Source of the DNA: a virus
Lineage: Duplodnaviria; Heunggongvirae; Uroviricota; Caudoviricetes
Direction: 5' to 3' (one strand)
IMG/VR virus record: IMGVR_UViG_3300048586_000134
Coordinates: 89,703 to 127,895 of that record
DNA length: 38,193 nucleotides
The stretch's first letter is position 1. Every line of letters starts with the position of its first letter. The notes below the pieces were generated by a model. That model had not been told where the DNA came from. It worked only from the letters and a program-made list of their open reading frames with translations, and ran no database searches. Below, in pieces: positions 3,728 through 34,782 of this stretch. The translations under genes were made by a program, and so were the position numbers.

Positions 3728-4339
3728 ATGACATTCGCGATTGATCAACTCTTTACGACGTGGTGGGAGTTTTTTGGGGTCATAACGGGCATTCTGAGCG
3801 TGGCGTTCCTGCTACCGACGAAACACCCTCGACTTCAATACCTGAATTGGCCTGCGGGTGTCATGACAGCGGCAATCTACACGTACATCTTCACCGAATG
3901 GGAGTTGTACGGTAACGCCGCATTACAAGTCTATTTCGTGCTCGTTTGTCTGGTTGGTGCGTGGACATGGAGAGGGCAGTTGCGGGGTCTCGTCAGTGAC
4001 GTTCCCGAAATTCCCATCACGACCTGTCCGTGGTCTGAAGTCTGGAAAGCAGGACTCTTTGCTCTGGCTATCTCGATTCCGATCATCGGCGTACTTACCC
4101 TGACAAATGACGCGCATCCAATTCCAGATGGTGCGATGGTTGCTCTGTCAGCCGCCGCAATCTGGCTTCAACTCAAGAAATACGTTCAGTCGTGGTTCTT
4201 CTGGATCGCGGTTGATTGTATTGCCATTCCGCTACACGCCTCCCAAGGTTTAGGCGCAACCGCAGCACTCTATGCTATTTACATGGCAATGTGCTTCGTT
4301 GGTTACAGACAGTGGGCGAAAGAAGCGGCAAATGGCTAA
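3728..4339 (+). CDS. pnuC: Nicotinamide riboside transporter PnuC
   Basis: Polytopic membrane protein with LNWPAG, YGNAALQVYF, WFFWIAVD motifs; next to nadR. Confidence 0.9.
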   Translation: MTFAIDQLFTTWWEFFGVITGILSVAFLLPTKHPRLQYLNWPAGVMTAAIYTYIFTEWELYGNAALQVYFVLVCLVGAWTWRGQLRGLVSDVPEIPITTCPWSEVWKAGLFALAISIPIIGVLTLTNDAHPIPDGAMVALSAAAIWLQLKKYVQSWFFWIAVDCIAIPLHASQGLGATAALYAIYMAMCFVGYRQWAKEAANG

Positions 4340-4829
4340 CATTATTCTCTTAAGAGGAACCCCGCTAAGTGGGAAAACGACCTTTGCTCAGAAAGCTGTG
4401 CTTGAGAGCAACGGTACATTAAAACTGGTCTCGAAGGACGCCTTAAGGCATATGTGTGACACCGATAATCGATTTGGTAACACACAGGCAAAAGAATACA
4501 CCGAACTTCGAGACCAGCTAATCTCCTTCTGGACTAAGCGCTTCTATAATGTGATCGTAGATGAGACCTTTGCGCGATTCGAAGATATTTACGAGGTTCG
4601 TAAGAAATTCATCTTTGACTCGCCTTGGAATATGTGCACCATTTACGACATGCCGCTCCTGTCACTAGACGAGCTAATTGACCGTGATCGTGAACGGGCA
4701 GAGCGCATTGGGCGTCGAATCGGTGCCGAAGAGTTAGCCGAGTATCATCGGCTCATTACGGAGTGGCCGACGAGGAAGTATCCTTCGTGGGAAAACCAAC
4801 GCCGCTGGGAGGAGGAGAAACATGTTTAA
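4332..4829 (+). CDS. P-loop kinase, T4 Pnk kinase-domain-like (AAA_33)
   Basis: IILLRGTPLSGKTT, VSKDALR, VIVDET; start set at ATG 4332. Confidence 0.75.
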   Translation: MANIILLRGTPLSGKTTFAQKAVLESNGTLKLVSKDALRHMCDTDNRFGNTQAKEYTELRDQLISFWTKRFYNVIVDETFARFEDIYEVRKKFIFDSPWNMCTIYDMPLLSLDELIDRDRERAERIGRRIGAEELAEYHRLITEWPTRKYPSWENQRRWEEEKHV

Positions 4830-5877
4830 GCATGGGATTGTTGCAGGGAAATTCTGGCCGCTGCACAAGGGACATGACGCCCTCATTCGTACAGCCTTGC
4901 GGCAGTGCGAACGCGTCACCGTCTTTGTGGTTTGGCTTGGCGATCAGGAACCAAGTGGTTTGACGCGTCAGGCATGGGTGCAAGCTGCCTATCCGCAAGC
5001 AGATGTACGACTTGTGGTGGATATCTGTACTGATGATAACCATCCAGACTCGTCAGTGACGTGGGCTGAGTACACGAAGGACATTCTCGAAGGCGATCTT
5101 CCCGATGCGGTCTTCTCGTCTGAGCCGTACGGAACATGGTGGGCTGCAAATATGGGAGCGCAGCACGTTCAGGTCAACCTGAATCGTAGCTACTTCCCGA
5201 TTAGTGGAACCATGATACGAAGTGATCCATATAAGTACTTTCACTACATCCATCCGATTGCGCGTGCGTACTACAACAAGCGCGTTCTCGTGGTAGGTGC
5301 TGAATCGACAGGCAAGACAACGCTATGCGCTGATCTTGCAATCGACTACTCTACGGTCTTTGTGCCTGAGTATGGTCGTATCTATGTCGAGAACAAGGCA
5401 TCTCGCGATGGTGTTGATGAGCGTGCCTGTTTTGGCGAAATCGTGAATCGACAGCTTCGTATGGAAGAAGAATATCTGAAAGACGCAAATCGCGTCCTTT
5501 TCTGCGACACTGATCTTTTCACAACGTCTCTCTGGTGGGAGCGTTGGATGGGAACGGGCTATGACCGTCTCTGGAATACGATTCAGACGATGGGGATCGA
5601 GCATGCGCATAAATATGATCTTGTACTCGTGATGGATCATGAAGGAACCGAGTGGGTTGATGACGGATTCCGCGATCAGCGTGATACGCGTGCGTGGTTT
5701 ACGGAGAACCTTGAAAACTTCTTCCGTTCGGTTGTTGTAAAAGAGTTCTACCCGACAGATGAGCGTCCACTCAATGTGGTCAAGCTGTCTGGCTCATGGG
5801 AAGAGCGTCACAAGACGGCGATTGCCGCTGTGAACGAGATTTTCGGTCAAACGGAGGCATTGCTTCCAAGGAGTTAA
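4822..5877 (+). CDS. nadR: NadR-like bifunctional NMN adenylyltransferase / ribosylnicotinamide kinase
   Basis: GKFWPLHKGH, ISGTMIR, GAESTGKTT, EYGR, FCDTD. Confidence 0.92.
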   Translation: MFKHGIVAGKFWPLHKGHDALIRTALRQCERVTVFVVWLGDQEPSGLTRQAWVQAAYPQADVRLVVDICTDDNHPDSSVTWAEYTKDILEGDLPDAVFSSEPYGTWWAANMGAQHVQVNLNRSYFPISGTMIRSDPYKYFHYIHPIARAYYNKRVLVVGAESTGKTTLCADLAIDYSTVFVPEYGRIYVENKASRDGVDERACFGEIVNRQLRMEEEYLKDANRVLFCDTDLFTTSLWWERWMGTGYDRLWNTIQTMGIEHAHKYDLVLVMDHEGTEWVDDGFRDQRDTRAWFTENLENFFRSVVVKEFYPTDERPLNVVKLSGSWEERHKTAIAAVNEIFGQTEALLPRS

Positions 5878-6659: not shown

Positions 6660-6734
6660 GGTGGGTGTAGCCTAATGGTAAGGCGAACGGCTGTGAACCG
6701 TGCTATTCGAGTTCGATCCTCGACATTCACCCCA
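6660..6734 (+). tRNA. tRNA-His(GTG)
   Basis: G-1:C73, GTG 6693-6695, encoded CCA. Confidence 0.93.
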
Positions 6735-7172
6735 TATCCGAAGATTGCTCGCTCTCAATGTGAGAGAGGAAAGTCCGCGCAGCGCAGAGTAGGGTGCCAA
6801 GGCTAAGAACCGAGGGCACCAAGGAGAAACACATGACAAACCGACTATCGATGACGCTCTTGATCCGTCTGAACTCCGATTCAGAAATCACCGCTGACCG
6901 CGTTGCGGAACTAGTGGCAGAACGTCTGGCAGAGCTTCCTGACGTAAAGGCCGTCATGACGGTTGATGTGACCGATCTTGGTGACAGTCAGACTAACAGA
7001 AAAGATTCTTGGGTTGACGAAGAGGCTGATGTCCAGTCCGATCCAAGCTGAAAATAGTAGAGAATCCTCCCTGCTGCAAGTTCGACCGTGGTGTGTCACT
7101 CGCACAAGACCACGAAGTAACGCTGAGATAGATGAGCATTGGAACAGAACGCGGCTTACATAAAGGGTATGG
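6735..7172 (+). ncRNA. rnpB: RNase P RNA, bacterial type A-like, lacking P18
   Basis: GAGGAAAGTCC 6766-6776 and ACAGAACGCGGCTTA 7144-7158; P2, P3, P4, P5 (GCAGC/GCTGC), P6 (GAGT/ACTC), P7 and P15-17 all pair. Confidence 0.88.
6833..7051 (+). CDS. Possible 72-aa ORF inside the RNase P RNA S-domain
   Basis: AAGGAG RBS 6 nt before ATG 6833; amphipathic ADRVAELVAERLAELPDV. Confidence 0.5.
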   Translation: MTNRLSMTLLIRLNSDSEITADRVAELVAERLAELPDVKAVMTVDVTDLGDSQTNRKDSWVDEEADVQSDPS

Positions 7173-7255
7173 AAACTTCTTGCTTTCTCGCGGCATTATT
7201 CAAGTGCAAGGACACTTGTTACGACGAATTGTGTGAGATACAAGACGAAATTGAT

Positions 7256-7638: not shown

Positions 7639-8058
7639 ATGCGAAAATATACAGATGATGATATCATTGTGTATGCAGCAGAGTCCTTCAGTCTTGCGCA
7701 GTTGCTTTCTAAGCTAGGTCTTCGGTCTGCTGGTGGTAACTATGCACATATGAAGAAGCATCTTCAACGCCTTAATGTTGACACATCTCACTGGACTGGA
7801 CAGGCGTGGAGCGCCGACCAACGTCTCAAGGACTGGTCAAAGTTTAAGAAGATGGATTGGTTAAAAAAGCACCTTATCCGTGAGCGAGGACATCGGTGTG
7901 AGAAATGCTTGACAGAGATGTGGTTTGATGATATGATTACGTTAGAAGTTCATCACATTGATGGTGATCGCACTAACAACGTATACGAGAACCTTCAACT
8001 TCTTTGTCCAAATTGTCATTCGTACACCGACAATTGGCGAGGGAAGAATAAAAAATAA
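7639..8058 (+). CDS. HNH endonuclease (family B)
   Basis: CEKC...LEVHHIDGDRTNN...NLQLLCPNCHS. Confidence 0.92.
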   Translation: MRKYTDDDIIVYAAESFSLAQLLSKLGLRSAGGNYAHMKKHLQRLNVDTSHWTGQAWSADQRLKDWSKFKKMDWLKKHLIRERGHRCEKCLTEMWFDDMITLEVHHIDGDRTNNVYENLQLLCPNCHSYTDNWRGKNKK

Positions 8059-8059
8059 T

Positions 8060-8135
8060 GCCGCTATAGCAGAATTGGCATATGCTCAGGGTCTAGACCC
8101 CTGGAAACTTGGAGGTTCAAGTCCTCCTAGCGGCA
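8060..8135 (+). tRNA. tRNA-Leu(TAG), C33, short variable region
   Basis: CAGGG-TCTAGAC-CCCTG, TAG 8094-8096. Confidence 0.82.
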
Positions 8136-8266
8136 CTATCCCGAGTGGGTTTCTCGGGCTGTCAGCGGTTCATAACCGATCTGACGTAACTCGACTGCGT
8201 AGCGGGAGAGTTGGCGCACACAGCTAGCACATCGGTGATCCCATAATCGATGGGTGTGCGCGTTTT

Positions 8267-8345
8267 GCGATTGTGGTGGAACGGCAGACACGCAGCGTTG
8301 AGGACGCTGTTCTTCGGAGTAAGAGTTCGAATCTCTTCAATCGCA
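8267..8345 (+). tRNA. tRNA-Leu(GAG)
   Basis: GAG 8300-8302, small UUCG variable hairpin. Confidence 0.9.
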
Positions 8346-8406
8346 CAAGAGAGTGGGGTCCGTAGCCGTACGAGTCGGCTAACCACTTTAAAACAACGGG
8401 CACCAT

Positions 8407-8479
8407 CGGGAACTAGGGTAACGGTTAGCCTACTTCGTTTGGATCGAAGAGCGTCCGCGTTCGAATCGCGGGTTCCCGA
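8407..8479 (+). tRNA. tRNA-Pro(TGG)
   Basis: C1:G72, A73, TGG 8440-8442. Confidence 0.9.
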
Positions 8480-8482
8480 CTA

Positions 8483-8610
8483 TGATGAGCCGATTGTTTT
8501 CGGTTATCTATTGGAAGACGTGGACGCAGGTGCGATTCCTGCCCTCCCGACCATCGGGAGGTAGCTCAGTAGCAGAGCACGAAAAATTCCGAGGCGTTAC
8601 TTGCTCATCA
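8483..8610 (+). ncRNA. Y RNA-like #3 (YrlA-type, permuted tRNA-Pro-like module)
   Basis: TGATGAGC[C]GA/TTGCTCATCA; GGTTATC; T arm 8526-8542, closed acceptor CCTCCCG-ACCAT-CGGGAGG, D arm TAGCTCAGTAGCAGAGC. Confidence 0.9.
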
Positions 8611-8636
8611 GTTTTTCATTTGTGAGAGGAGGCACA

Positions 8637-8843
8637 ATGAAATACGAAGTTACTCAAGAATACAGCCGCAAGAAAGCAGAATTCAGTAATCTGGACGAAG
8701 CGCTCGTCAATGCGATTGTACGGGCTGCTCAATCCAAGTACGACTCGACGGAAATCAGTATTAACGGCGTGCACTTCATTTCGGTCTCACCTTCTGGTGC
8801 GCAGAAGTACGCAGGAGTTGACGACGACGAAGACGACTACTAA
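8637..8843 (+). CDS. Hypothetical protein
   Basis: GGAGG RBS, ATG 8637. Confidence 0.7.
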   Translation: MKYEVTQEYSRKKAEFSNLDEALVNAIVRAAQSKYDSTEISINGVHFISVSPSGAQKYAGVDDDEDDY

Positions 8844-9055
8844 TGTGGGTTACTGCTCAAATTGAGGACAAGCCAATCAGTCCAGCCGAGTTGGAGAGAG
8901 ACCGAAAGGCTCGTCTTGCTGCCGCGCTCGCGCATGCAGGCAAGGGAAAGAGTCTCTCGAATCGTCAACTCGATAAGATGGTTGACAGGCTTGAAGAGAT
9001 TGTGATACAATTGCGTCAGCAGGACGAATTGCAGCGATTGCAGGGGGTGACATGA
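8843..9055 (+). CDS. Hypothetical protein
   Basis: Translationally coupled 70-aa ORF. Confidence 0.7.
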   Translation: MWVTAQIEDKPISPAELERDRKARLAAALAHAGKGKSLSNRQLDKMVDRLEEIVIQLRQQDELQRLQGVT

Positions 9056-10114: not shown

Positions 10115-10248
10115 ATGTAAGCCGACTTGTGTGCGTTATCATCAAATTTTTGATTGTAGGTTCGAATCCTATCATCCTTCGGGATGTGGCCGAATGGCAA
10201 AGGCAGAAATTGGGGAAACCCATCTCGCACCTAACTTATTGCTTACAT
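10115..10248 (+). ncRNA. Y RNA-like #4 (YrlA-type)
   Basis: ATGTAAGC[C]GA/TTGCTTACAT; GTGCG/CGCAC; T arm GTAGG-TTCGAAT-CCTAT, CATCC-TTCG-GGATG, D arm GCC-GAATGGCAAA-GGC. Confidence 0.9.
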
Positions 10249-11032: not shown

Positions 11033-11105
11033 GGGGGTGACTGGCATGCCGAGCACTACAGGATTGTGGTCCTCGGAAACGCGGGTTCGAATCCCGCCAC
11101 CTCCA
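11033..11105 (+). ncRNA. tmRNA-like tRNA-like domain without mRNA domain
   Basis: GGGGGTG/CACCTCC with G3-U70 and A73, stemless D loop, CCGAG/CTCGG helix closed by a short hairpin, ACGCGGGTTCGAATCCCGCC. Confidence 0.72.
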
Positions 11106-11143
11106 CTGAGCGCTTTGCTCGCGGGTCAAACGAAGGAGGCTGC

Positions 11144-13742: not shown

Positions 13743-13819
13743 GCCTGAGTAGCTCAGTTGGTCAGAGCGATGCACTCGTAACGCATAGGTCGCGGGTTCG
13801 AATCCCGCCTTTGGCTCCA
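13743..13819 (+). tRNA. tRNA-Thr(CGT)
   Basis: CGT 13777-13779, encoded CCA. Confidence 0.93.
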
Positions 13820-13820
13820 T

Positions 13821-13892
13821 GCTCCCTTCGCCAAGCGGAAAGGCATCGGGTTTACATTCCGACATGCGGCGGTTCGATTCCGTCAGGGAGCA
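13821..13892 (+). tRNA. tRNA-Val(TAC)
   Basis: TAC 13853-13855. Confidence 0.9.
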
Positions 13893-24957: not shown

Positions 24958-27900
24958 ATGGAGCACACAGATCGCGACCAATTAGCTCGTGCCTTGCACG
25001 GTGGACGTGCGACTGAAATTGAAGCAGCGCTTCGAGATGTTATTTCTGACTTCGTGCGTGATCAAACAGATGTGCGGCAGGCGGTCGCGGATGTCATCTA
25101 CCAAATGGGTATGGGTGATATCGATGCGGGTGTTATCTCGGTTAATGGAAGACTCGGAACGGTTGTCCTCACACAAGACGCCATTCCTGACGGCAACAAC
25201 GCCAAGCAGTTTTCCATTTTCGACAAGGCCAAGCTCGACTCTGTTGCAATTGGCGCAACCGCAAACCAGACCGACGCCTTTTTGGTTAGTCGGGCAAATC
25301 ATACAGGAACACAGTCCGCTGATACCATTGTCAACGGTGTAACCAACAAGGTACTTACGGCGGCTGAAAAAGCAAAACTCACCAGCATGAATGCAGGAGC
25401 AACGGTCAACTCCCCCGACAGCTTTCTCCTGAATCGGGCGAACCACACTGGAACGCAGTCGGCAGCAACCATCTCCGACCTTTCCAATGTGGTTCGTTCT
25501 ATTTTGGCTGATATCAGTATTGCGGTTTCGTCAGTTAACGGTCAGGGTGGCGATGTTGTCCTTGATCTTGATGACATTCTTGCTGGACAACTGAACAAGC
25601 ACTTCACAGAAGCCGAAAAAGTCAAGCTCCTCGGGATTGCTTCTGGTGCGACGGCGAACAACACGGACGCATTTCTTACGAATCGTGCGAATCACACAGG
25701 TACGCAATCGTCTACAACCATCGCGGATTTCGACACGGCAGTTGCCACGAATACGTTTGTCGCCGCAGCGACCGCTGCTCGACACACGCACGCGAACAAG
25801 TCTGTTCTTGATAATGTAACAGCGGCATACACAACCACTGAGCAAACAAAGCTCGCGGGTATTGCTCCAAACGCAACCGCGAACGCCTCGGATGCGCAGC
25901 TACGGGACCGCTCCACACATACAGGAACACAGGCTCCTGATACGATTGACGGTCTTGCGGAGACGATTCTCGACACCGTAGGGAACTCACTCATCGCTGG
26001 CGACAATATTAGCATCGTTTATGATGACGAGGGTGATACCGTCAACTTTGTGGTTTCCGCCACGAGTGGGGCAGTTTCGTCCGTCAACGGTCAAACGGGT
26101 ATCGTGGCGCTCGATCAGGACGACATTCCTGATGGAACAACTGCAAAGCAGTTCACTGCAACCGAGAAGACGAAACTCTCGGGAATTGCGACAGGAGCGA
26201 CAGCGAACTCGACTGACGCTCAGCTTCGAAGCCGCGCAACCCACACAGGAACGCAGACGGCATCGACCATCAGCGATTTCGATCTGGCGGTCTCTCAGAA
26301 CACGACCGTCCAAGCGAACACCACAGCACGCCACTCGCACACAAACAAGGCATTGCTTGACAGCTACAACCGCACCAACGAAGAGATTTCAAATGCGGTT
26401 GCGATTGCACACTCACACACAAACGGCGCAGTTCTCAACGCTACGACGGCTTCATTCACAACGGCACTCAAGACCAAGCTCGACGGTATCGCGACAGGGG
26501 CAACAGCAAACGACACTGATGCCAACCTTCGTAGCCGTGCGACACACACTGGCACGCAACCATCGACAACCATCTCGGACTTTGCAGAAGCAGTTCGGGA
26601 CACGATGGGAGTAGCGCTGGTCGCTGGTACGAACATCACAATTACTCCTGACGATGCTGCGAACACGATTACCATCAACTCAACCGCAAGTACGAGTGGT
26701 GAGGTAGAATCGGTTAACGGGCAGATAGGAATTGTCGTTCTCGATCAGGATGATATTCTTGACGGCACCACGGCTAAGCAATTCACGGCGACAGAGAAAA
26801 CGAAGCTCGCTGGAATCGCGACCGCCGCAACCGCAAACAGCACTGACGCGCAATTACGTGATCGTGCGACACATACGGGAACACAGCTTTCCTCCACGAT
26901 CAGCAACTTCCAGACAAGCGTTTCCGCGAATACGGACGTTGCTGCGAACACCACGGCTCGACACACGCACACCAATAAGACCATCCTCGATGCAGTCACC
27001 GCAGCCTTCACGACAGCGGATGAAACCAAGCTCGACGGTATCCAGGCTGGCGCTACAGTTAATGCGACCGATGCGGCTCTTCGTGACCGCACAACGCATA
27101 CAGGCACACAACCCTCCACGACGATTTCCGATTTCTCGGAAGCCGTACGTGACACGATGGGTCTGGCATTGGTGGCGGGTGATAACGTTACGATCACTCC
27201 TGATGACAACGCGAACACCATCACCATTACCTCGGTTGCGGGTGGACAGGTTGACTCGGTAAACGGACAGACTGGTAATGTGACGCTGACGCAGGATGAC
27301 GTGGCAGATGGACTGATTGCGAAGCAGTTCACGGTATCTGAGGAAACCAAGCTGGCAGGGATTGCCGCTGGTGCGACTGTTAATGATACCGATGCAGCGC
27401 TCCGTGACCGTTCGACGCACACAGGAACACAAACTGCATCAACGATCAGCGACTTCCAGACAACGGTAAGCGCGAATGCGACGGTAGCTGCAAATACGGC
27501 AGCGAGACACACGCATACGAACCAAGCCGTTCTCGACGCAACAACCGCATCCTTTACACTTGCTGACGAAAGCAAGCTCGACGGCGTTCAAGCAGGAGCT
27601 ACCGCAAACGCGTCAGATTCGTCTCTAAGGGATCGAAGTACCCACACAGGTACGCAGACATCAAATACGATTTCTGACCTCTCTGAGACGATCCTAGAGC
27701 GCGTGGGAGGCATCCTACAAGCAGGTGCCAATGTTACCCTGACGCCAAACACCGAAACAGACACCATTACCATTGCCGCAATTGTCGAAAGTGGTATGGG
27801 TGAGGTTAATTCGGTCAATGGTGCTACGGGTGTTGTTACCCTCGACACCGACGACATTCCAAGCGGTACAGTTACGTCACAGTACACGAACACCGAGAAG

Positions 27901-30900
27901 ACAAAGCTCGCAGGTATCCAGAGTGGTGCAACCGCGAATGCAACCGATGCTCAACTACGTGATCGTAGTACGCATACGGGAACGCAATTGGCGTCCACCA
28001 TTTCTGACTTCCAGACGGCGGTTTCCGCCAACGCCGATCTAGTGGCTCTGGTTGGTCATGACCACGACGCGGACTATGCCGCACTCGTTCACGACCACGA
28101 TGGGCGCTACTACACAGAGACGGAAGTTAACACGCTCCTGACTGGAAAATCAGACACAACTCACAATCATGACGCCGAGTACGCGACAATTGGTCACGAT
28201 CACGATCTTGACTATGCGTTGATTGCGCACGGTCATGTTATCGCTGATGTAACTGGACTCCAAACCGCACTCGACGGAAAAGCAGCAACCACTCATAATC
28301 ACGATCTGACGTATGCACCGATTGTGCACACGCACGACGAGTATGCGACGGATGCTGATTTGACGGCTGGTTTGGCAACAAAGTCAAATACGACGCATAT
28401 CCATGACGACCGCTACTACACAGAAACGGAAGTTGATGATGCGCTTGTTTTGAAAGCAAATGCTGATCACACACACGCCGATCTGGTTACGGATGCTGAG
28501 TTTGCAACGGCTCTAGCGGGAAAGAGTGACACAACCCACAATCACGATACTGTGTACGCGGCTCTTAGCCACGGACATGTTATTGCTGATGTTACGGGTT
28601 TGCAGGCGGCTCTCGATGCGAAGGCCGCAGCAGGACACAACCACGATTCGGCTTATGCCGCCCTTGTTCATGGTCACGTTATCGGAGACGTTACAGGTCT
28701 TCAGACGGCGTTGGATGGTAAGGCTTCAACATCGCACAATCACGATCTGGTTTACTCCGCAATCGGACACACGCATAGCGATCTGGTTACGGACGCGGAA
28801 CTGGCAACCGCACTTTCGGGTAAGGCTGATACAGTTCACGATCACGACACGCGGTACTATACTGAAACCGAAACGGACACGTTGCTTGCGGGTAAAGCGA
28901 ATACCGTGCATACGCACGACGACCGATACTTTACTGAATCGGAAGTAACGACCTTACTAGCTGGCAAGAGTGACACGACACACAACCACGATGCAGCGTA
29001 TGCGGTTATTGGACACAATCATGACAGTGCCTATGCAAGTATAACACACGATCACGACACCGACTATGCCGCGCTCGTACATGATCATGATGGTCGCTAC
29101 TATACGGAAACAGAAGTTGATGACGCGCTCGTGCTGAAAGCTGACGCGGATCATTTGCACACAGGAGTCTATGCCCCTGTTGCGCATGACCACGACCTTG
29201 ATTATGCAGCTATCGGACATCTTCACGATGACCGCTACTTTACTGAAACCGAGGTAACGGACGCGCTCGCCGCAAAAGCAAATGTAGCACACATGCACGC
29301 CATTGCGGATACAACGGGACTTCAGGCCGCACTAGATGGTAAAGCGGCAACCGTCCATAACCACGACGCGGCATACGCTGCTCTTGTGCATGGTCATGCT
29401 ATTACCGACGTAACTGGTCTACAGACGGCTCTTGATGGAAAGGCTGCAACAGGACACGATCACGATCTGGACTACGCAGCAATCGATCATACACACGCTG
29501 ATCTGGTAACAGATGGTGAGTTTGCGACAGCGCTTGCAGGAAAGTCCGATATAGCGCACACGCATGACGGTCGATATTACACCGAGACAGAAGTTGATAC
29601 CTTCCTGGCTGGCAAGTCTGATACGACGCATAATCACGATGCCGCATATGCGGCTCTTGGTCACAACCATGACGCCGACTACGCGGACATTGCGCACAAT
29701 CACGACCTAGACTATGCGGATATTGCCCACCTCCACGACGGTCGTTATTACACAGAGACCGAAATTGATACGGCGTTGGCGCTGAAGTCAGATACTACAC
29801 ATAATCACGCTGGCGTCTATGCACCGACTGTCCACGATCATGACTCACGTTATTACACGGAGACGGAAATTGATACGGCTCTAGCTGGTAAAGCAAACAC
29901 AACGCACGCGCACGCCATTGCGGATGTGACCAATTTGCAGTCCAGTCTTGACGGTAAAGCAAGCAGCACGCATAACCACGATCTTGTGTATGCGGCTATC
30001 GGCCACAACCACGATGCGGCATACTCCGCACTTGGTCACAATCACGATGATCGCTACTTTACGGAATCCGAAGTCACAACCGCTCTGGCAGGGAAGTCAG
30101 ATACGGGCCACACGCACACAGCGGCCAATGTTACCGACTTCAACACGGCGGCGGATGCTCGCATTACTGCTCAGAAGGGTGTCGCGAGCGGACTGGCAAC
30201 GCTTGACGGTTCTGGTAAGATTCCAACGACGCAGATTCCTCCGATTGCGATGACTGACGTTTCGGTTGTGGCGTCTCAGGCGGCACAATTGGCACTGACC
30301 TCGCAAGAGGGTGACGTTGTTATTCGAACCGACCTCAATCGCACCTACATTCACAACGGCGGCAGCGCGGGGACAATGGCCGATTGGACTGAAATGGCGA
30401 CTCCAACCGATGTCGTTCAGAGCGTCAATGGTCAGACTGGCGTTGTCACCCTGACGACGACCAATGTGAATGAGGGAACCAACCTTTACTACACCGAAGC
30501 AAGAGTCAACGCCAACACGAATGTCGCTGCGAATACGTCTGCACGTCACTCGCACAGCAACAAGGCAACTCTTGACGCGGTGACAGCGGCGTTCACGACG
30601 GCGCTGAATACGAAGCTGACTGGAATCGAGACAGGAGCGGATGTCACGGACGCTGCGAATGTCGATGCCGCAGGAGCGGTCATGAATACGGATACCACGA
30701 CAGCAGCAATGCAGTTCGTGGTTGATGAAGACAGCATGACCTCCAATAGCGCAACCAAGGTTCCAACCCAGCAGAGTGTCAAGGCGTATGTGGACACAGG
30801 ACTTGCAACGAAAGCAAGCAGCACGCACAACCATGATGCGACGTATGCAGCGCTCGTGCATGATCACGATAGCCGTTACTACACCGAGACGGAGATTGAC

Positions 30901-33900
30901 ACGGCACTCGCTGGAAAAGCGAATACCGCGCACGACCACGATACTCGATACTACACCGAAACCGAAGTCGATACCCTGCTTGCTGATAAGAGTAACACAA
31001 CTCACAATCACGACGCAAGCTACGCGCCACTGGTTCACAACCATGACACGCTGTACTACACCGAGTCGGAAGTTGACACCCTGCTGGCTGGAAAGTCCGC
31101 GACGAGTCACACACACGTCACCGCTGACGTAACGGGACTCGATACGGCTCTGGCAGGTAAGGCTGCTTCAAGCCACACGCACCATGTCAATGATCTGACC
31201 GCGACAGGAACGAAGTCTACGACGACCTTCCTCCGAGGTGACAACACCTGGGCGACTCCGCCGAACACAACCTATGCGGTTCCGACGCAAGCAGAAGCAG
31301 AAGCGGGTACGGCAACGACTGGACGCGCATTCAGCGCTCAGCGCGTCAATCAGGCGATTCAGGCGTTGGCTCCTGTTAAGGCTGCTGATCTGGCAACCAA
31401 GGCGAATGTGTCGCACACGCATGTCATCGGAGACACGACTGGCCTTCAGGCGGCTCTTGACGGTAAGGCAAGTACGACACACAATCACGATGCGACCTAT
31501 GCGGCTCTTGCACATACCCATGCTATCGCAGATACAACGGGATTGCAAGCGGCTCTGGATGGGAAGGCGTCAACAACACATAACCACGACGCGGCATACG
31601 CGGCGATTGGTCATAACCATGATGCTGCTTATGCGGCTCTCGTCCATGACCATGACACACGCTATTACACCGAGACAGAGGTTGATACCCTTCTTGGAGG
31701 AAAAGCGAACAGTTCGCACACGCACGCAATCTCGGATGTGACAAACTACCGTTCCGAAATCTGGAACGCGATGTCACACACCTCGCAACCAGCCGAAACC
31801 GAAATAGGTTCGGGAGCGGATGCGGGTACGGCGACTGCAAGCGTGGCGATTGGTAACAACGCGCAAACGCTTGAGGCAAACTCCGTTGCAATCGGTCAGT
31901 TTGCTGCTGCACACGGCGAAAGCTCGACTGTCATTGGTGATCTGGCGTATGCAATGGGTGACCGTGGCTTTGCGATTGGAGCAAACGCTGAAGCCGACAA
32001 TGCTGATGAAGGTGTTCTGAGAGCAAACTCGGTAAAGATTCAGCGGTCGAACGGAACGGGAGCAACGACGCTCAATGTGGCGGCTCCTGATGGTACGGCG
32101 AAGGTTCTTGGCATCGGCAATGATAACATTCCGACGATCAATGGCGTTGCACTCTCCATCCCGCACAACCATGACGCGACCTATGCGGCGATCAGTCACA
32201 CGCATGTTGCAGCGAACATTACCGACTTCGACACTGAGGTGTCCAACAACACCGACGTGACAGCAAATACGGCGGCTCGTCACAGTCATGCAAATAAGGC
32301 GCTTCTCGATACGTACGCACAAACAGAAGTCAATCTGGCAGATGCCGTAGCCAAGAAGCACAGTCACAGCAATCAGGCCGTACTTGACGCAACGACTGCT
32401 TCGTATACAACAGCGCTCAACACCAAGCTCTCTGGCATCGAAGCACTCGCTGATGTAACTGACGCAGCAAACGTAGACGCTGCTGGCGCGGTCATGAACT
32501 CCGACACCACAACTGCTTCAATGTCGTTTGTGGTTGACGAAGATGCAATGACTTCGAATAGTGCCACAAAGGTGCCGACGCAACAAAGTGTGAAAGCGTA
32601 TGTCGATACGGGATTGAGCGGAAAGGCGAACACGTCGCACACGCACACCGCAGCGAACATTACGGATTTCAGCACGGCGGCAGATGCACGAATTACGGCA
32701 CAAAAAGGTAATGCGAGTGGTCTGGCTACCCTGGATGCTGGCGGCAAGATTCCATCGACACAGCTTCCTGCTATCGGTCTCACGGATGTCAATGTTGTCG
32801 CGTCTCAGGCAGCGCAGCTTGCATTAACGGCCCAAGAGGGTGACGTTGCGATCCGCTCTGACCTGAACCGCAGCTATATCCACAATGGCGGTACAGCGGG
32901 AACTATGGCTGACTGGACCGAACTGGCAACGCCGACTGACGCAGTACAAAGCGTCAACGGTCAGACAGGTGCGGTTTCACTTACCACGACAAACATCAAT
33001 GAAGGTACGAATCTCTACTACACCGAGGCTCGTGTCAATGCGAATACGAATGTTGCGGCGAACACGGCTGCACGACACAGCCACTCCAACAAGGCTCTTC
33101 TTGATACGTACACACAGACCGAGGCAAACCTCGCGGATGCGGTATCCAAGAAGCACAGTCACGCAAATCAGGCAACGCTCGATGCGACAACCGCTTCCTA
33201 CACGACAGCACTCAACACGAAGCTGACAGGTATTGAAGCACTCGCTGATGTGACGGATGCGGCGAATGTTGATGCGGCTGGTGCAGTTATGAATTCGGAC
33301 ACGACAACGGCAAGTATGTCGTTTGTTGTGAATGAAAACAACATGGTGTCGAATAGTACGACCAAGGTTCCAACGCAGGCAAGCGTCAAGAGTTATGTCG
33401 ATACTGGTCTGGCTGGTAAGGCGGCAAGCTCGCACTCACACGCTATCTCGGACGTGACAAACTTACAGACAACGCTCGATGGTAAGGCGTCCTCGACACA
33501 TAACCATGATGCAACGTATGCGGCTCTGTCGCACACACACACGGCAGCGAATGTTACTGATTTTGCTGAGGTTGTCCGAGATACGATGGGAACCGCGCTC
33601 GTTGCGGGTTCGAACATCACGATTACACCAAATGATGTAGGCGATACCATTACGATTGCTGCTACGTCAACTGCTCCTGTAACGTCGGTTAACACCCTCA
33701 CTGGTGCGGTCACGCTTACGCAAGATAACATCGGTGATGGTACAACATACAAACAATACTCGCAAACCGAGAAGAGTAAGCTCGCTGGCATCGAAGCTGG
33801 TGCAGACGTTACTGACGCGGCAAATGTCGATGCTGCTGGCGCGGTAATGAATTCGGATACTTCGACGGCTTCTATGTCCTTTGTCATTGACGAAGACGCG

Positions 33901-34782
33901 ATGACAACGAATACCGCGACCAAGGTGCCGACACAACAGAGCGTGAAAGCCTACGTTGACGCGGGGCTTGCAACGAAGGCGGCGACAAGCCATAATCACG
34001 ATGCAACCTACGCAGCGCTTTCGCACACGCACGATGACCGCTACTACACTGAAAGTGAAATGGCGACTCTGTTGAACGCGAAAGCAGGATTGGTTCACAC
34101 GCATGCGGCATCTGAGCTTACAGCAACAGGTACGCGAGACGCAACGACATTTCTCCGTGGTGACAACACATGGCAAGTGCCTCCTCTTGCAACCCATACG
34201 CACGATGATCGATATTATACTGAGACTGAGATTAACTCTCAGATGTCAGGCAAGGCAAACTCAGTACACAGTCACGCCGCAGTCGATGTCATCGACTTCG
34301 CTGAAACCGTTCGTGATACAATGGGTGCAGCCCTTGTTGGTGGTACGGGTATCACGGTTACGCCAAACGACGTTGGAGATACCATTACCATTACGAATAA
34401 CGCCTCGGTGGTGACTGTCTGCGATTCTGCAAGTGCTGCATCGACAGCAAGTACGACAAGCACGACAGTCTATGCTACAGCGTTATCTACGAACATCACA
34501 CTTCCTGCTGGTACGTGGACGGTGAATGCTATTGGCGGTCTTCTCTGTACACACAGCGCAAGTGGTACTGTGAACGTGCAAACTGTTATTGCTGGTGATG
34601 CAGGAACAGCACGCGCAATCAGCGGTGTTTCAAGTTCATCTCCAAATATGGTGGTAGACAACGCTGTTAAGGGAGGCCAGTCTGGAACAATTACCTGTCT
34701 CATTCAGTACAAGTCCAGCACGGCTGGAACAACTGCTGCGAAGAACCCTTGGATTACCATTATTGCGGAGAGAACCGCGTAA
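24958..34782 (+). CDS. Giant (3274 aa) His-rich repetitive fibre protein, tail fibre/whisker-like
   Basis: Many HxHD, HTHDDRYYTETE, RANHTGTQ, SVNGQTG and HxIADVTGLQxALDGKA (phage tail repeat-like) units; YadA-head-like xAIG repeats at about 31810-32010. Confidence 0.85.
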   Translation: MEHTDRDQLARALHGGRATEIEAALRDVISDFVRDQTDVRQAVADVIYQMGMGDIDAGVISVNGRLGTVVLTQDAIPDGNNAKQFSIFDKAKLDSVAIGATANQTDAFLVSRANHTGTQSADTIVNGVTNKVLTAAEKAKLTSMNAGATVNSPDSFLLNRANHTGTQSAATISDLSNVVRSILADISIAVSSVNGQGGDVVLDLDDILAGQLNKHFTEAEKVKLLGIASGATANNTDAFLTNRANHTGTQSSTTIADFDTAVATNTFVAAATAARHTHANKSVLDNVTAAYTTTEQTKLAGIAPNATANASDAQLRDRSTHTGTQAPDTIDGLAETILDTVGNSLIAGDNISIVYDDEGDTVNFVVSATSGAVSSVNGQTGIVALDQDDIPDGTTAKQFTATEKTKLSGIATGATANSTDAQLRSRATHTGTQTASTISDFDLAVSQNTTVQANTTARHSHTNKALLDSYNRTNEEISNAVAIAHSHTNGAVLNATTASFTTALKTKLDGIATGATANDTDANLRSRATHTGTQPSTTISDFAEAVRDTMGVALVAGTNITITPDDAANTITINSTASTSGEVESVNGQIGIVVLDQDDILDGTTAKQFTATEKTKLAGIATAATANSTDAQLRDRATHTGTQLSSTISNFQTSVSANTDVAANTTARHTHTNKTILDAVTAAFTTADETKLDGIQAGATVNATDAALRDRTTHTGTQPSTTISDFSEAVRDTMGLALVAGDNVTITPDDNANTITITSVAGGQVDSVNGQTGNVTLTQDDVADGLIAKQFTVSEETKLAGIAAGATVNDTDAALRDRSTHTGTQTASTISDFQTTVSANATVAANTAARHTHTNQAVLDATTASFTLADESKLDGVQAGATANASDSSLRDRSTHTGTQTSNTISDLSETILERVGGILQAGANVTLTPNTETDTITIAAIVESGMGEVNSVNGATGVVTLDTDDIPSGTVTSQYTNTEKTKLAGIQSGATANATDAQLRDRSTHTGTQLASTISDFQTAVSANADLVALVGHDHDADYAALVHDHDGRYYTETEVNTLLTGKSDTTHNHDAEYATIGHDHDLDYALIAHGHVIADVTGLQTALDGKAATTHNHDLTYAPIVHTHDEYATDADLTAGLATKSNTTHIHDDRYYTETEVDDALVLKANADHTHADLVTDAEFATALAGKSDTTHNHDTVYAALSHGHVIADVTGLQAALDAKAAAGHNHDSAYAALVHGHVIGDVTGLQTALDGKASTSHNHDLVYSAIGHTHSDLVTDAELATALSGKADTVHDHDTRYYTETETDTLLAGKANTVHTHDDRYFTESEVTTLLAGKSDTTHNHDAAYAVIGHNHDSAYASITHDHDTDYAALVHDHDGRYYTETEVDDALVLKADADHLHTGVYAPVAHDHDLDYAAIGHLHDDRYFTETEVTDALAAKANVAHMHAIADTTGLQAALDGKAATVHNHDAAYAALVHGHAITDVTGLQTALDGKAATGHDHDLDYAAIDHTHADLVTDGEFATALAGKSDIAHTHDGRYYTETEVDTFLAGKSDTTHNHDAAYAALGHNHDADYADIAHNHDLDYADIAHLHDGRYYTETEIDTALALKSDTTHNHAGVYAPTVHDHDSRYYTETEIDTALAGKANTTHAHAIADVTNLQSSLDGKASSTHNHDLVYAAIGHNHDAAYSALGHNHDDRYFTESEVTTALAGKSDTGHTHTAANVTDFNTAADARITAQKGVASGLATLDGSGKIPTTQIPPIAMTDVSVVASQAAQLALTSQEGDVVIRTDLNRTYIHNGGSAGTMADWTEMATPTDVVQSVNGQTGVVTLTTTNVNEGTNLYYTEARVNANTNVAANTSARHSHSNKATLDAVTAAFTTALNTKLTGIETGADVTDAANVDAAGAVMNTDTTTAAMQFVVDEDSMTSNSATKVPTQQSVKAYVDTGLATKASSTHNHDATYAALVHDHDSRYYTETEIDTALAGKANTAHDHDTRYYTETEVDTLLADKSNTTHNHDASYAPLVHNHDTLYYTESEVDTLLAGKSATSHTHVTADVTGLDTALAGKAASSHTHHVNDLTATGTKSTTTFLRGDNTWATPPNTTYAVPTQAEAEAGTATTGRAFSAQRVNQAIQALAPVKAADLATKANVSHTHVIGDTTGLQAALDGKASTTHNHDATYAALAHTHAIADTTGLQAALDGKASTTHNHDAAYAAIGHNHDAAYAALVHDHDTRYYTETEVDTLLGGKANSSHTHAISDVTNYRSEIWNAMSHTSQPAETEIGSGADAGTATASVAIGNNAQTLEANSVAIGQFAAAHGESSTVIGDLAYAMGDRGFAIGANAEADNADEGVLRANSVKIQRSNGTGATTLNVAAPDGTAKVLGIGNDNIPTINGVALSIPHNHDATYAAISHTHVAANITDFDTEVSNNTDVTANTAARHSHANKALLDTYAQTEVNLADAVAKKHSHSNQAVLDATTASYTTALNTKLSGIEALADVTDAANVDAAGAVMNSDTTTASMSFVVDEDAMTSNSATKVPTQQSVKAYVDTGLSGKANTSHTHTAANITDFSTAADARITAQKGNASGLATLDAGGKIPSTQLPAIGLTDVNVVASQAAQLALTAQEGDVAIRSDLNRSYIHNGGTAGTMADWTELATPTDAVQSVNGQTGAVSLTTTNINEGTNLYYTEARVNANTNVAANTAARHSHSNKALLDTYTQTEANLADAVSKKHSHANQATLDATTASYTTALNTKLTGIEALADVTDAANVDAAGAVMNSDTTTASMSFVVNENNMVSNSTTKVPTQASVKSYVDTGLAGKAASSHSHAISDVTNLQTTLDGKASSTHNHDATYAALSHTHTAANVTDFAEVVRDTMGTALVAGSNITITPNDVGDTITIAATSTAPVTSVNTLTGAVTLTQDNIGDGTTYKQYSQTEKSKLAGIEAGADVTDAANVDAAGAVMNSDTSTASMSFVIDEDAMTTNTATKVPTQQSVKAYVDAGLATKAATSHNHDATYAALSHTHDDRYYTESEMATLLNAKAGLVHTHAASELTATGTRDATTFLRGDNTWQVPPLATHTHDDRYYTETEINSQMSGKANSVHSHAAVDVIDFAETVRDTMGAALVGGTGITVTPNDVGDTITITNNASVVTVCDSASAASTASTTSTTVYATALSTNITLPAGTWTVNAIGGLLCTHSASGTVNVQTVIAGDAGTARAISGVSSSSPNMVVDNAVKGGQSGTITCLIQYKSSTAGTTAAKNPWITIIAERTA

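What the first reader, a model, noticed from the sequence alone, without database searches (positions are those of the whole stretch)
8483..8610. Y RNA #3 contains a circularly permuted tRNA-Pro with CCA in the closing loop
Seen: inside the Ro stem the order is a TTGGAA anticodon-like segment, T arm (GCAGG-TGCGATT-CCTGC), acceptor 3' strand CCTCCCG, ACCA-T, acceptor 5' strand CGGGAGG, then a canonical D arm. C1:G72 and A73 are tRNA-Pro identity elements. The neighbouring tRNA-Pro is also preceded by ACCAT (8402-8406). Known: YrlA RNAs have the T-AS-D permuted order with a closed acceptor. Inference: RNase P cleavage before C1 plus a one-nt trim would expose a free CCA, giving an aminoacylatable Y RNA. 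The element may record the origin of YrlA from tandem tRNA genes.
Basis: partly seen in the sequence, partly recalled or inferred. Interest (0 to 1): 0.78.

Follow-up and report, generated by a model that had tools for sequence, protein, structure and literature searches.

The report
Phage Y RNA with built-in CCA
An uncultured phage encodes a small Ro60-partner RNA (a YrlA-type Y RNA) whose tRNA-shaped part has a full-length acceptor stem capped by the letters ACCA-U, so ordinary tRNA processing could open it into a two-piece RNA with a tRNA-like CCA end; one bacterium is already known to do this, so it is a new example and not a new principle.

Summary
Window 8483-8610 is a YrlA-type Y RNA (Rfam RF02553, 34 bits; known actinophage and actinobacterial YrlAs score 36-56). 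It is one of about 11 RNAs with a shared Ro-type handle in the tRNA array of a 128-kb phage that encodes Ro60.

Its tRNA-like module runs T arm, 7-bp acceptor stem, loop A73-C-C-A-U, D arm. Covariation supports the fold.

M. smegmatis YrlA (7-bp stem) is cut by RNase P and receives CCA (Chen 2014). The authors already raised aminoacylation.

Added here:
- The CCA is encoded in the genome.
- NCCA follows the 7-bp stem in 5 of 20 YrlAs found without regard to the loop (P about 1e-5).
- The same ACCAU loop sits next to Ro60 genes in distant phages.
- It tends to occur with C1:G72, the bacterial tRNA-Pro acceptor mark.

The tRNA-Pro likeness is solid for the acceptor end only. An in-register UGG is present here but not kept in relatives. 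The D arm is generic.

Cleavage, charging and an origin from tandem tRNAs are untested.

Earlier notes of this scan report many permuted tRNA mimics with CCA loops on other DNA.

Verdict: new member of a known kind, moderate interest.

The parts
8402..8406 (+). ACCAT leader directly before tRNA-Pro(UGG); identical to the Y RNA acceptor loop
   Evidence: the 10-mer ACCATCGGGA occurs only at 8402 and 8550
8407..8479 (+). tRNA-Pro(UGG), C1:G72, A73, no encoded CCA; ends 3 nt before the Y RNA
   Evidence: ARAGORN; Rfam tRNA 54.2 bits
8483..8490 (+). 5' strand of the terminal (Ro-type handle) helix, UGAUGAGC
   Evidence: perfect 8-nt complement at 8603-8610; Rfam YrlA alignment
8489..8508 (+). Handle motif GCCGAUUG ... 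GGUUAUC, shared by the roughly 11 paralogous RNAs of the window and resembling the YrlA GNCGAAN0-1G motif plus the CGGUUAYC seen here in actinobacterial and phage YrlAs
   Evidence: motif definition in PMC4201824
8511..8516 (+). UUGGAA: falls at tRNA positions 33-38 (U33, UGG 34-36, A37) if the variable loop is the 4-nt GGAC
   Evidence: not conserved in register in relatives
8519..8521 (+). CGU, pairs with ACG 8579-8581 (3-bp remnant of an anticodon stem)
   Evidence: Rfam alignment; ARAGORN drawing
8526..8542 (+). T arm, 5-bp stem, loop UGCGAUU (G at position 55)
8543..8549 (+). Acceptor-like stem, 3' strand (positions 66-72), CCUCCCG
8550..8554 (+). Loop A73-C74-C75-A76-U(-1); predicted RNase P site between U8554 and C8555
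   Evidence: sequence; precedent PMC4201824; recurrence
8555..8561 (+). Acceptor-like stem, 5' strand (positions 1-7), CGGGAGG
8562..8578 (+). U8 A9 and D arm (GCUC AGUAGCA GAGC)
8603..8616 (+). 3' strand of the terminal helix (GCUCAUCA) followed by G and U5, the likely 3' end or terminator

Best explanation
Window 8483-8610 is a phage YrlA-type Y RNA, a partner RNA of the phage's own Ro60 (Rsr). It is transcribed within the tRNA array and released by tRNA processing; it starts 3 nt after tRNA-Pro.

Its tRNA-like module has a true-length 7-bp acceptor helix stacked on a 5-bp T stem. The helix is closed by A73-C-C-A-U. RNase P most likely cuts between U8554 and C8555, and a 3' exonuclease then removes U8554. 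The two pieces (about 71 nt and about 58 nt) would stay base-paired and carry a free CCA end, as shown for M. smegmatis YrlA.

Shown here: the fold, family membership, recurrence of the design, and its linkage to Ro60.

Inferred only: cleavage, trimming, Rsr binding, and whatever the CCA end then does (protection from exonucleases, or binding of a tRNA-recognising protein).
For: Family membership:
- Rfam YrlA matches the full model at 34.2 bits, E = 1e-5. Known mycobacteriophage, Gordonia and Streptomyces phage YrlAs and Mycobacteriales YrlAs score 36-56 bits, all below the gathering score.
- A Ro60/TROVE gene lies in the same genome on the same strand.
- The handle motif AGCCGA...GGUUAUC is shared by about 11 paralogues, each placed right after a tRNA.

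Fold:
- The core folds alone as T-AS-D.
- Across 12 related elements 92.7% of cells are paired against 72% in shuffles. 12 of 16 pairs show changes on both sides. 0 of 500 shuffles reach this, and slid controls reach 59% at most.

Loop design:
- NCCA follows a 7-bp stem in 5 of 20 YrlAs found with the Rfam model, binomial P about 1e-5.
- The same ACCAU loop occurs 185 nt downstream of Ro60 in L376. That Ro60 is only 21% identical to ours, yet about 45 nt of the RNA core are nearly identical.
- It also occurs about 650 nt upstream of Ro60 in G300.
- Short acceptor stems carry UUCG-type caps, whereas 7-bp stems carry longer, unstructured loops.
- The junction NCCA-U-N1 also separates genuine tandem tRNAs in this phage (Thr/Val, 13816-13821), so processing of exactly this junction must already occur.

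Enzymes and precedent:
- An RNase P RNA-like gene lies at 6732-7176 and shows the conserved P4 strands (GAGGAAAGUCCG; ACAGAACGCGGCUUACA) in the Rfam alignment.
- RNase P cleavage and a CCA tail on M. smegmatis YrlA are published, and its 7-bp stem is named as the determinant (PMC4201824; bioRxiv 10.1101/312249).
Against: - There is no transcript, cleavage or binding data for this RNA.
- The loop is only 5 nt, and A73:U-1 can pair to give an 8-bp stem with a CCA triloop. RNase P access is therefore uncertain. The M. smegmatis-like YrlA in L143 has a 6-nt loop.
- Pairing potential between positions 73 and -1 is kept in most relatives, which also fits selection for a closed cap.
Encoded CCA is therefore not required by the class.
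- The gene lies 7.5 kb from rsr. Chen et al. report that nearly all best matches to their model lay within 4 kb of the Ro60 gene.
- The GNCGAA motif has one mismatch (GCCGAU).
Confidence: 0.58

Rival explanations
1. Same Y RNA, but the acceptor hairpin stays closed in vivo, as in S. Typhimurium YrlA. The CCA is only the sequence of a stable 3- to 5-nt cap, and the RNA works as an intact tether between Ro60 and an effector.
For: RNAfold gives an 8-bp stem with a CCA triloop at -13.3 kcal/mol, z = -3.7. The Rfam YrlA consensus cap is a 3-nt 'cua', one letter away from CCA. Pairing between positions 73 and -1 is possible in most relatives. Most YrlAs are thought to stay closed (bioRxiv 10.1101/312249).
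Against: NCCA directly after a 7-bp stem is far more frequent than chance. It goes together with tRNA-length stems, whereas shorter stems use UUCG caps. ACCAU is kept while the stem covaries between phages whose Ro60 proteins are 21% identical. The M. smegmatis precedent ties a 7-bp stem to cleavage.
Confidence: 0.27
2. After opening, the RNA is a working tRNA-Pro mimic. Prolyl-tRNA synthetase charges its CCA end. The charged or bound RNA then links Ro60 to the synthetase, EF-Tu or ribosomes, or it decoys factors that target tRNA-Pro.
For: G72 and A73 are the strongest determinants for bacterial-type ProRS, ahead of G36 and G35 (PMC11229370). The RNA has C1:G72, A73, G15:C48 and an in-register U33-UGG-A37. 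When re-permuted in silico, ARAGORN calls it tRNA-Pro(tgg) at one of four junctions tried. Its 3' segment including the acceptor strand is closest to tRNA-Pro among 1,993 tRNAs (18 of the top 40, P = 4e-15). C1:G72 goes with NCCA loops (4 of 6 against 1 of 20, Fisher P = 0.005). The same CCCG-A...U-CGGG acceptor end recurs in phages Atuin and Percival.
Against: There is no closed anticodon arm: only 3 bp of the stem remain, and the 'loop' is a junction into the handle. In relatives with ACCAU the in-register triplet is GUG (L452, L495). About half of the NCCA lineages have G73, which cost ProRS 90-fold in B. thuringiensis. T-arm likeness to tRNA-Pro is weak, and the control Y RNA #4 gives the same result. 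The D arm is generic. The elbow is non-canonical (A18, G55). The phage already has two normal tRNA-Pro genes.
Confidence: 0.12
3. A decaying by-product: a recent local chimera of the neighbouring tRNA-Pro gene and a Y RNA, or a tandem-tRNA false positive, with no function of its own.
For: The 10-mer ACCATCGGGA is shared with the leader and start of the tRNA-Pro gene 150 nt upstream. Tandem tRNAs can mimic the T-AS-D order (PMC4201824 methods; L420).
Against: The two acceptor strands are perfectly complementary within one RNA. Between the end of tRNA-Pro and the T arm there are only 46 nt, which is too little for a first tRNA. The handle motif is intact. The same core with ACCAU is kept next to Ro60 in a distant phage.
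Confidence: 0.03

Closest known systems
Mycobacterium smegmatis YrlA (Chen et al. 2014, RNA 20:1715, PMC4201824)
   Same: Ro60-bound Y RNA with T arm, 7-bp acceptor-like stem closed by a loop, and D arm. It is cut by RNase P at the tRNA 5'-end position. The 5' half ends in CCA, and both halves stay with Rsr.
   Different: There, CA is added after cleavage and nibbling. Here the whole ACCA is encoded and a single U separates it from C1. This one is phage-encoded, sits in a tRNA array 7.5 kb from rsr, has a C1:G72/A73 acceptor end, and has a non-canonical elbow (A18, G55). Processing is not shown here.
Mycobacteriophage and other actinophage YrlAs (22 phages in Chen et al. 2014; Rfam RF02553)
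   Same: Encoded by Ro60-carrying phages. They share the handle motif (GNCGA...GGUUAYC), the same module order, and similar sub-threshold Rfam scores.
   Different: The copies next to Ro60 that I examined in Pinkcreek, Cashline, GMA2 and Limpid have UUCG caps or other loops without CCA. A second, unannotated element in Pinkcreek (about 91.8 kb) has G-CCA after a 7-bp stem.
S. Typhimurium YrlA (structure: Wang et al. 2018, bioRxiv 10.1101/312249)
   Same: tRNA-like L-shape with a closed acceptor stem; described as resembling a circularly permuted tRNA.
   Different: 6-bp stem; not cut by RNase P; no CCA; sits in the rsr-rtcBA operon.
Two-piece (circularly permuted) tmRNA genes and permuted tRNA genes of Cyanidioschyzon merolae (own knowledge; Soma 2007 as cited)
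   Same: The acceptor 3' strand with CCA is encoded upstream of the 5' strand. An intervening loop must be opened by tRNA end-processing enzymes.
   Different: The Rfam permuted-tmRNA model scores only 15 bits. There is no tag reading frame. No splicing-type motif or ligation step would rebuild an anticodon loop.
Permuted tRNA-mimic RNAs beside DUF7873 genes
   Same: T arm, acceptor stem with CCA in the closing loop, D arm; found in many phages and bacteria.
   Different: Those RNAs follow a DUF7873 gene and mostly lack Ro60 and the Ro handle. Here Ro60 and the handle are present, and no DUF7873 was found among the 36 ORFs scanned.

Membership tests
YrlA / bacterial Y RNA (Rfam RF02553) | Score at or above the Rfam gathering threshold (69 bits) | tested here: not met
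   34.2 bits over the full model, E = 1e-5. Accepted actinophage and Mycobacteriales YrlAs also fall below the threshold at 36-56 bits, so the threshold does not discriminate in this clade.
YrlA / bacterial Y RNA (Rfam RF02553) | Module order T arm, acceptor-like stem-loop, D arm, enclosed by a stem formed from the 5' and 3' ends | tested here: met
   covariation
YrlA / bacterial Y RNA (Rfam RF02553) | GNCGAAN0-1G motif near the 5' end (proposed Ro60 contact) | tested here: inconclusive
   GCCGAUUG at 8489-8496 has one mismatch (U for the second A). The paralogue at 13428 has an exact GCCGAAG. GGUUAUC follows, as in other actinobacterial and phage YrlAs.
YrlA / bacterial Y RNA (Rfam RF02553) | Encoded near a Ro60 (TROVE) gene on the same strand (nearly all best matches within 4 kb in Chen et al.) | tested here: inconclusive
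   Same strand and same genome, but 7.5 kb downstream. Homologues with the same loop lie 185 nt from Ro60 (L376) and about 650 nt from it (G300).
YrlA / bacterial Y RNA (Rfam RF02553) | Bound by Ro60/Rsr | not testable with these tools
   Needs co-immunoprecipitation or a gel-shift assay.
YrlA / bacterial Y RNA (Rfam RF02553) | Conserved tRNA tertiary-pair nucleotides (U8:A14, G15:C48, G18:U55, G19:C56, U54:A58) | tested here: inconclusive
   U8, A14, G15, C48, G19, C56, U54 and A58 are present. G18 and U55 are replaced by A and G, in L376_Y1 as well.
RNase P-cleavable YrlA (M. smegmatis type) | 7-bp acceptor-like stem | tested here: met
   CCUCCCG pairs with CGGGAGG, 7 Watson-Crick pairs.
RNase P-cleavable YrlA (M. 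smegmatis type) | Cleavage by RNase P, and a CCA 3' end on the 5' half | not testable with these tools
   CCA is encoded and the site is predicted at 8554/8555. There are no experimental data.
Bacterial (P-type) tRNA-Pro | C1:G72 and A73 | tested here: met
   Of the 40 tRNAs in the window, only the two tRNA-Pro genes start with C. Determinants as given in PMC11229370.
Bacterial (P-type) tRNA-Pro | Closed anticodon arm presenting G35 G36 | tested here: not met
   UGG is in register only if the variable loop is 4 nt. The stem has 3 pairs plus A-A and A-G. The loop is open into the handle.
Bacterial (P-type) tRNA-Pro | Recognised as a tRNA by tRNA finders | tested here: not met
   ARAGORN and the Rfam tRNA model make no call at 8483-8610. 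An in-silico re-permuted version is called tRNA-Pro(tgg) at only one of four junctions.
Bacterial (P-type) tRNA-Pro | Body (D and T arms) resembling tRNA-Pro | tested here: not met
   The D arm is closest to Thr, Val, Met and Lys tRNAs. The enrichment of V+T for Pro is weak and is matched by the control Y RNA #4. The phage's own tRNA-Pro genes rank mid-table.
Permuted tmRNA (Rfam RF04321) | Model score; tag reading frame | tested here: not met
   15.2 bits against a gathering score of 47, covering only the T arm and acceptor strand.
DUF7873-associated tRNA-mimic RNA (earlier notes of this scan) | Lies directly after a DUF7873 gene | tested here: not met
   The upstream neighbours are tRNAs and an HNH endonuclease. 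No DUF7873 hit was found in 36 ORFs of the genome, 139-351 aa long. ORFs outside those scanned were not checked.

The most novel reading that the evidence does not exclude
A sub-family of phage and actinobacterial Y RNAs, together with related handle-less RNAs in phages that lack Ro60, are two-piece tRNA-Pro mimics. RNase P opens an acceptor helix that carries the bacterial ProRS determinants C1:G72 and A73 and an encoded CCA. The RNA is then bound or charged by prolyl-tRNA synthetase. This would couple Ro60 RNA surveillance to the translation apparatus, or decoy factors aimed at tRNA-Pro.
Probability: 0.12. Interest if true: 0.85.

Novelty: new member of a known kind. Interest (0 to 1): 0.45.

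Why it matters
What the tRNA-like domain of YrlA Y RNAs does is still unknown. The only processed example so far is M. smegmatis.

This element and its relatives show that a tRNA-length acceptor stem with an encoded NCCA, often with the tRNA-Pro-specific C1:G72 pair, recurs next to Ro60 genes in distant phages and in Mycobacteriales. That makes 'opened, CCA-ended Y RNA' look like a class and not an oddity of one species.

It also gives a sharp test: is the RNA cut, and is it charged with proline?

Cultured systems carry related elements: Arthrobacter phage Atuin, Microbacterium phage Percival, and cluster C1 mycobacteriophages such as Pinkcreek on M. smegmatis.

If the loop stays closed, this is one more ordinary phage YrlA.

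Tried and rejected
- blastn of 8050-8900 against cultured phages found nothing.
- The search for related loci with Ro60 gave nothing in IMG/VR and only relatives at 43% identity or less in metagenomes.
- I tried to fetch the M. smegmatis YrlA gene through the published primer sequences. The first primer had no hit. A 16-mer gave only chance hits. L143, a close relative, was used as a stand-in.
- The IMG/VR pattern TTCGANT-N13-CCA-N8-13-TAGCTCA returned mostly tandem tRNAs.
- The pattern TGCGATTCC-N10-ACCATCGG hit mostly a coding motif in giant-virus contigs, which I read as RNA polymerase (not tested). Only L376 was a real homologue.
- 'Tandem tRNA false positive' is rejected. The acceptor strands pair within one RNA, and only 46 nt separate tRNA-Pro from the T arm.
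- 'Conserved proline anticodon' is rejected as a class feature. In-register triplets are UGG, AGG or CGG in some lineages but GUG, GUU or UGU in others.
- 'T arm is tRNA-Pro-specific' is rejected after a control.
- DUF7873 as an alternative protein partner was not found. The family name was not accepted by the genome search, so only 36 ORFs were scanned.
- No literature was found on permuted tRNAs in phages or on CCA-loop Y RNAs.

Full report
**What is there**

The window is the right-hand 38 kb of a 127,895-bp IMG/VR phage record with direct terminal repeats. It holds 40 tRNA genes. The Ro60/Rsr (TROVE) gene straddles the window start and reads on the + strand.

- a terminal helix, UGAUGAGC 8483-8490 with GCUCAUCA 8603-8610, followed by G and U5;
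- a handle motif, GCCGAUUG ... GGUUAUC, at 8489-8508;
- UUGGAA at 8511-8516;
- a T arm at 8526-8542;
- CCUCCCG 8543-8549, ACCAU 8550-8554, CGGGAGG 8555-8561;
- UA, then a D arm at 8564-8578.

tRNA-Pro(UGG) ends at A8479, 3 nt before the RNA starts, and is itself preceded by ACCAU (8402-8406). The 10-mer ACCATCGGGA occurs only at these two places in the window.

**Is it a Y RNA?**

The Rfam YrlA model matches 8486-8610 end to end at 34.2 bits, E = 1e-5 for the local search. That is below the gathering score of 69. However, the YrlAs of Mycobacterium phage Pinkcreek, Gordonia phages Cashline and GMA2 and Streptomyces phage Limpid score 37-43 bits. YrlAs in 20 Actinomycetes genomes score 36-56 bits. 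The threshold is therefore not informative in this clade.

The 5' motif AGCCGA-N8-10-GGUUAUC is shared by about 11 RNAs in the window. Each starts within a few nucleotides of a tRNA 3' end, and several have complementary ends. The same GNCGA...CGGUUAYC pattern is seen in the actinobacterial and actinophage YrlAs I extracted. It corresponds to the GNCGAAN0-1G motif of Chen et al. 2014.

A second paralogue at 10115-10248 is a conventional YrlA with a 5-bp acceptor mimic and a UUCG cap.

**Is the fold real?**

The 53-nt core folds alone into T arm, acceptor hairpin and D arm (64% of the ensemble, z = -3.4). A scan for this module order finds only this element at full score in the window.

I aligned it with 11 related elements from phages and Mycobacteriales (alignment A2). 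On that alignment:
- 92.7% of cells pair, against 72% in shuffles;
- 12 of 16 pairs have changes on both sides;
- 0 of 500 shuffles reach the observed values;
- sliding the partners drops pairing to 59% or less.

Part of this set was collected with CCA-containing patterns. The invariance of the loop in that alignment therefore proves nothing. The stem covariation does.

**The closing loop**

M. smegmatis YrlA, the one studied YrlA with a 7-bp acceptor stem, is found in vivo as two Rsr-bound halves. The 3' half starts exactly at the RNase P site. The 5' half carries CA added to give CCA. E. coli M1 RNA cuts the transcript at that site. The authors note it 'could potentially be aminoacylated' (PMC4201824). 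The structure paper describes most YrlAs as resembling circularly permuted tRNAs with closed acceptor stems (bioRxiv 10.1101/312249).

What differs here is that the whole A73-CCA is encoded and only one U separates it from C1.

Is that chance? Among YrlAs found with the Rfam model, without regard to the loop, 5 of 20 with a 7-bp stem have NCCA directly after the 3' strand:
- this RNA;
- L149, CCGCCCG-GCCAU-CGGGCGG;
- L144;
- L145;
- a second, unannotated element in phage Pinkcreek, L016.

The binomial P is about 1e-5. Relatedness is not corrected for.

**Homologues next to Ro60**

A true homologue was found in IMG/VR contig 3300006056_000001 (L376 6485-6612). It has the same unusual T loop UGCGAUU, the same D loop AGUAGCA and the same ACCAU. 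Positions 5:68 and 6:67 of the stem covary.

It lies 185 nt downstream of a Ro60 gene whose protein is only 21% identical to ours. A second Y RNA follows it whose loop is GCCAAU.

ACCAU-loop elements with a Ro-type handle also lie about 650 nt upstream of Ro60 in G300 (L452) and in the Ro60-encoding phage G302 (L478).

Short acceptor mimics (4-6 bp) carry UUCG-type caps. Stems of 7 bp mostly carry longer, unstructured loops, with or without CCA. This fits two classes, closed and openable.

**Does the phage already process this junction?**

Yes. tRNA-Thr(CGU) ends U73-CCA at 13816-13819, followed by U13820 and G1 of tRNA-Val. The phage also carries an RNase P RNA-like gene at 6732-7176 (58 bits, E = 3e-17). 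The Rfam alignment shows GAGGAAAGUCCG and ACAGAACGCGGCUUACA, which I read as the two strands of P4.

**Arguments against cleavage**

- RNAfold pairs A73 with U-1, giving an 8-bp stem with a CCA triloop.
- The loop is one nucleotide shorter than in the M. smegmatis-like L143.
Encoded CCA is a subset feature of the class and not a requirement.

**How much of a tRNA-Pro is it?**

Solid:
- C1:G72 and A73, the primary determinants of bacterial ProRS, ranked G72 > A73 > G36 > G35 (PMC11229370).
- Only the two tRNA-Pro genes among the window's 40 tRNAs start with C.
- Against 1,993 unique tRNAs from loci not fetched with this sequence, the segment V loop + T arm + acceptor 3' strand + A73 has 18 tRNA-Pro in its top 40 (P = 4e-15).
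- C1:G72 accompanies NCCA loops: 4 of 6 against 1 of 20 (Fisher P = 0.005).
- The end CCCG-A...U-CGGG recurs in Arthrobacter phage Atuin (Ro60-encoding; loop ACUUCAU) and in Microbacterium phage Percival (no Ro60; loop ACCACGU).

Suggestive:
- Counting back from the T stem with the 4-nt variable loop GGAC puts U33-UGG-A37 in register.
- An in-silico re-permuted sequence is called tRNA-Pro(tgg) by ARAGORN at one of four junctions. Random hexamers in place of UUGGAA give a tRNA% of the time.

Not supported:
- The anticodon stem has only three pairs and the loop is open.
- The in-register triplet is GUG in the ACCAU relatives L452 and L495, and GUU in many YrlAs.
- T-arm likeness to tRNA-Pro is weak, and the control Y RNA #4 reproduces it.
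- The D arm is the generic YrlA type.
- About half of the NCCA lineages have G73.

'Permuted tRNA-Pro' is thus an acceptor-end property plus one possibly coincidental triplet.

**Origin**

The loop does look like a tandem-tRNA junction. The 10-mer shared with the neighbouring tRNA-Pro suggests local exchange. But the ACCAU core predates this phage (L376), and YrlA is spread over many phyla. The element therefore cannot record the origin of YrlA. Direction and mechanism remain open.

**Other partner?**

Earlier AI notes of this scan report more than 200 permuted tRNA mimics with CCA loops on other DNA, mostly following a DUF7873 gene and lacking Ro60. Here the RNA has the Ro handle and the genome has Ro60. 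No DUF7873 was found in the 36 ORFs scanned.

Related handle-less modules do occur in huge phages that lack Ro60 (L424, L504). See the items noticed in passing.

**Verdict**

This is a genuine phage YrlA-type Y RNA of the M. smegmatis (7-bp stem) kind, with the CCA already encoded and a tRNA-Pro-like acceptor end.

My estimates:
- opening by RNase P: about 0.6;
- proline charging: about 0.12;
- a record of YrlA's origin from tandem tRNAs: not supported.

New member of a known kind; interest 0.45.

Noticed in passing
window 6732-7176 (+): RNase P RNA class A-like gene starting right after tRNA-His. 58.2 bits (gathering score 100), E = 3e-17, full model length. The Rfam alignment shows GAGGAAAGUCCG and ACAGAACGCGGCUUACA, which I read as the P4 strands, and a 159-nt insertion. 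The stretch aligned to the consensus CGGGUAG (which I take to be the L15 GGU site that binds CCA) reads CACGAAG. A phage-borne RNase P RNA would be unusual.
   Followed up: partly
window 3448, 7340, 8483, 10115, 10863, 12020, 12692, 13237, 13428, 17747, 17930 (+): About 11 RNAs share the 5' motif AGCCGA-N8-10-GGUUAUC. Each begins within a few nucleotides of a tRNA 3' end, and several have complementary 3' ends followed by U runs. Only those at 8483 and 10115 contain a tRNA-like T-AS-D module.
   Followed up: partly
window 11033-11108 (+): Rfam tmRNA match at 46 bits (gathering score 47), E = 3e-15, but spanning only 76 nt of sequence. Possibly the tRNA-like end of a reduced or split tmRNA.
   Followed up: no
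L376 6622-6760 (IMGVR_UViG_3300006056_000001): A second Y RNA lies directly after the homologue of this finding, downstream of Ro60. Its acceptor stem is CCACCCC/GGGGUGG with loop G-CCA-AU, again an encoded NCCA.
   Followed up: partly
L016 1480-1620 (Mycobacterium phage Pinkcreek MZ958745.1, about 91.84-91.96 kb): Unannotated YrlA-like RNA (24.6 bits, full model) in the tRNA cluster, 35 kb from the Ro gene, starting right after a tRNA CCA end. It has the handle GCCGACGAG...CGGUUAUC and the acceptor stem CGCUCCG/CGGAGCG with loop G-CCA-CAAACC.
   Followed up: partly
L424 6590-6720 and L504 6085-6170 (huge phages of metagenome 3300045988, 116-220 kb; about 30 contigs): Permuted tRNA-like genes with a perfect T arm, a 7-bp stem, an (A/G)CCAU loop, C1:G72, a canonical D arm, a full 5-bp anticodon stem that covaries between two types (CUGUU/AACAG and ACUAU/AUAGU), and U-A-(U/A)-G-G-G in the loop position. 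This amounts to a UGG or AGG anticodon followed by G37. No Ro60 was found in the two genomes checked, one of which is complete. That complete genome (G299) has 25 tRNAs but none for Pro, Lys, Gln or Asp, and it carries a CUA suppressor tRNA. These might be real permuted tRNA-Pro genes or Ro-independent mimics.
   Followed up: partly
L149, L144, L145 (three unnamed Mycobacteriales genomes G008, G124, G050): Bacterial YrlAs with 7-bp acceptor stems and encoded NCCA in the loop (GCCAU, GCCAGC, UCCACCCGC). L149 has the same 5-nt design as the phage RNA.
   Followed up: partly
L618 1495-1600 (Microbacterium phage Percival MH271308.1, 46.67-46.78 kb) and L619 1470-1600 (Arthrobacter phage Atuin OK040794.2, about 94.1 kb): Unannotated relatives in cultured phages. 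Percival has no Ro60; its minimal permuted tRNA-like RNA follows tRNA-Lys directly, with loop ACCACGU. Atuin's element lies 450 nt downstream of its annotated Ro-like gene, with loop ACUUCAU. Both have the CCCG-A...U-CGGG acceptor end.
   Followed up: partly
window 8347-8406 (+): The spacer between tRNA-Leu(GAG) and tRNA-Pro holds a hairpin, UAGCCG-UACGAGU-CGGCUA, with a 7-nt T-loop-like loop (U.CGA.U, as in the Y RNA). It is followed by ACCAC and later by ACCAU. Possibly a remnant of a tRNA or minihelix.
   Followed up: no
window 13816-13821 (+): tRNA-Thr(CGU) with encoded UCCA is separated from tRNA-Val(UAC) by a single U. This is the same NCCA-U-N1 junction as in the Y RNA loop.
   Followed up: yes
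window 3728-5877 (+): A PnuC-type nicotinamide mononucleotide transporter (E = 2e-39), a P-loop kinase-like protein, and a protein with an AAA_28 domain plus a faint cytidylyltransferase-like hit lie inside the tRNA array. I read the last as NadR-like (not tested). This looks like an NAD salvage set.
   Followed up: no
window 24958-34782 (+): A single open reading frame of 3,274 codons.
   Followed up: no
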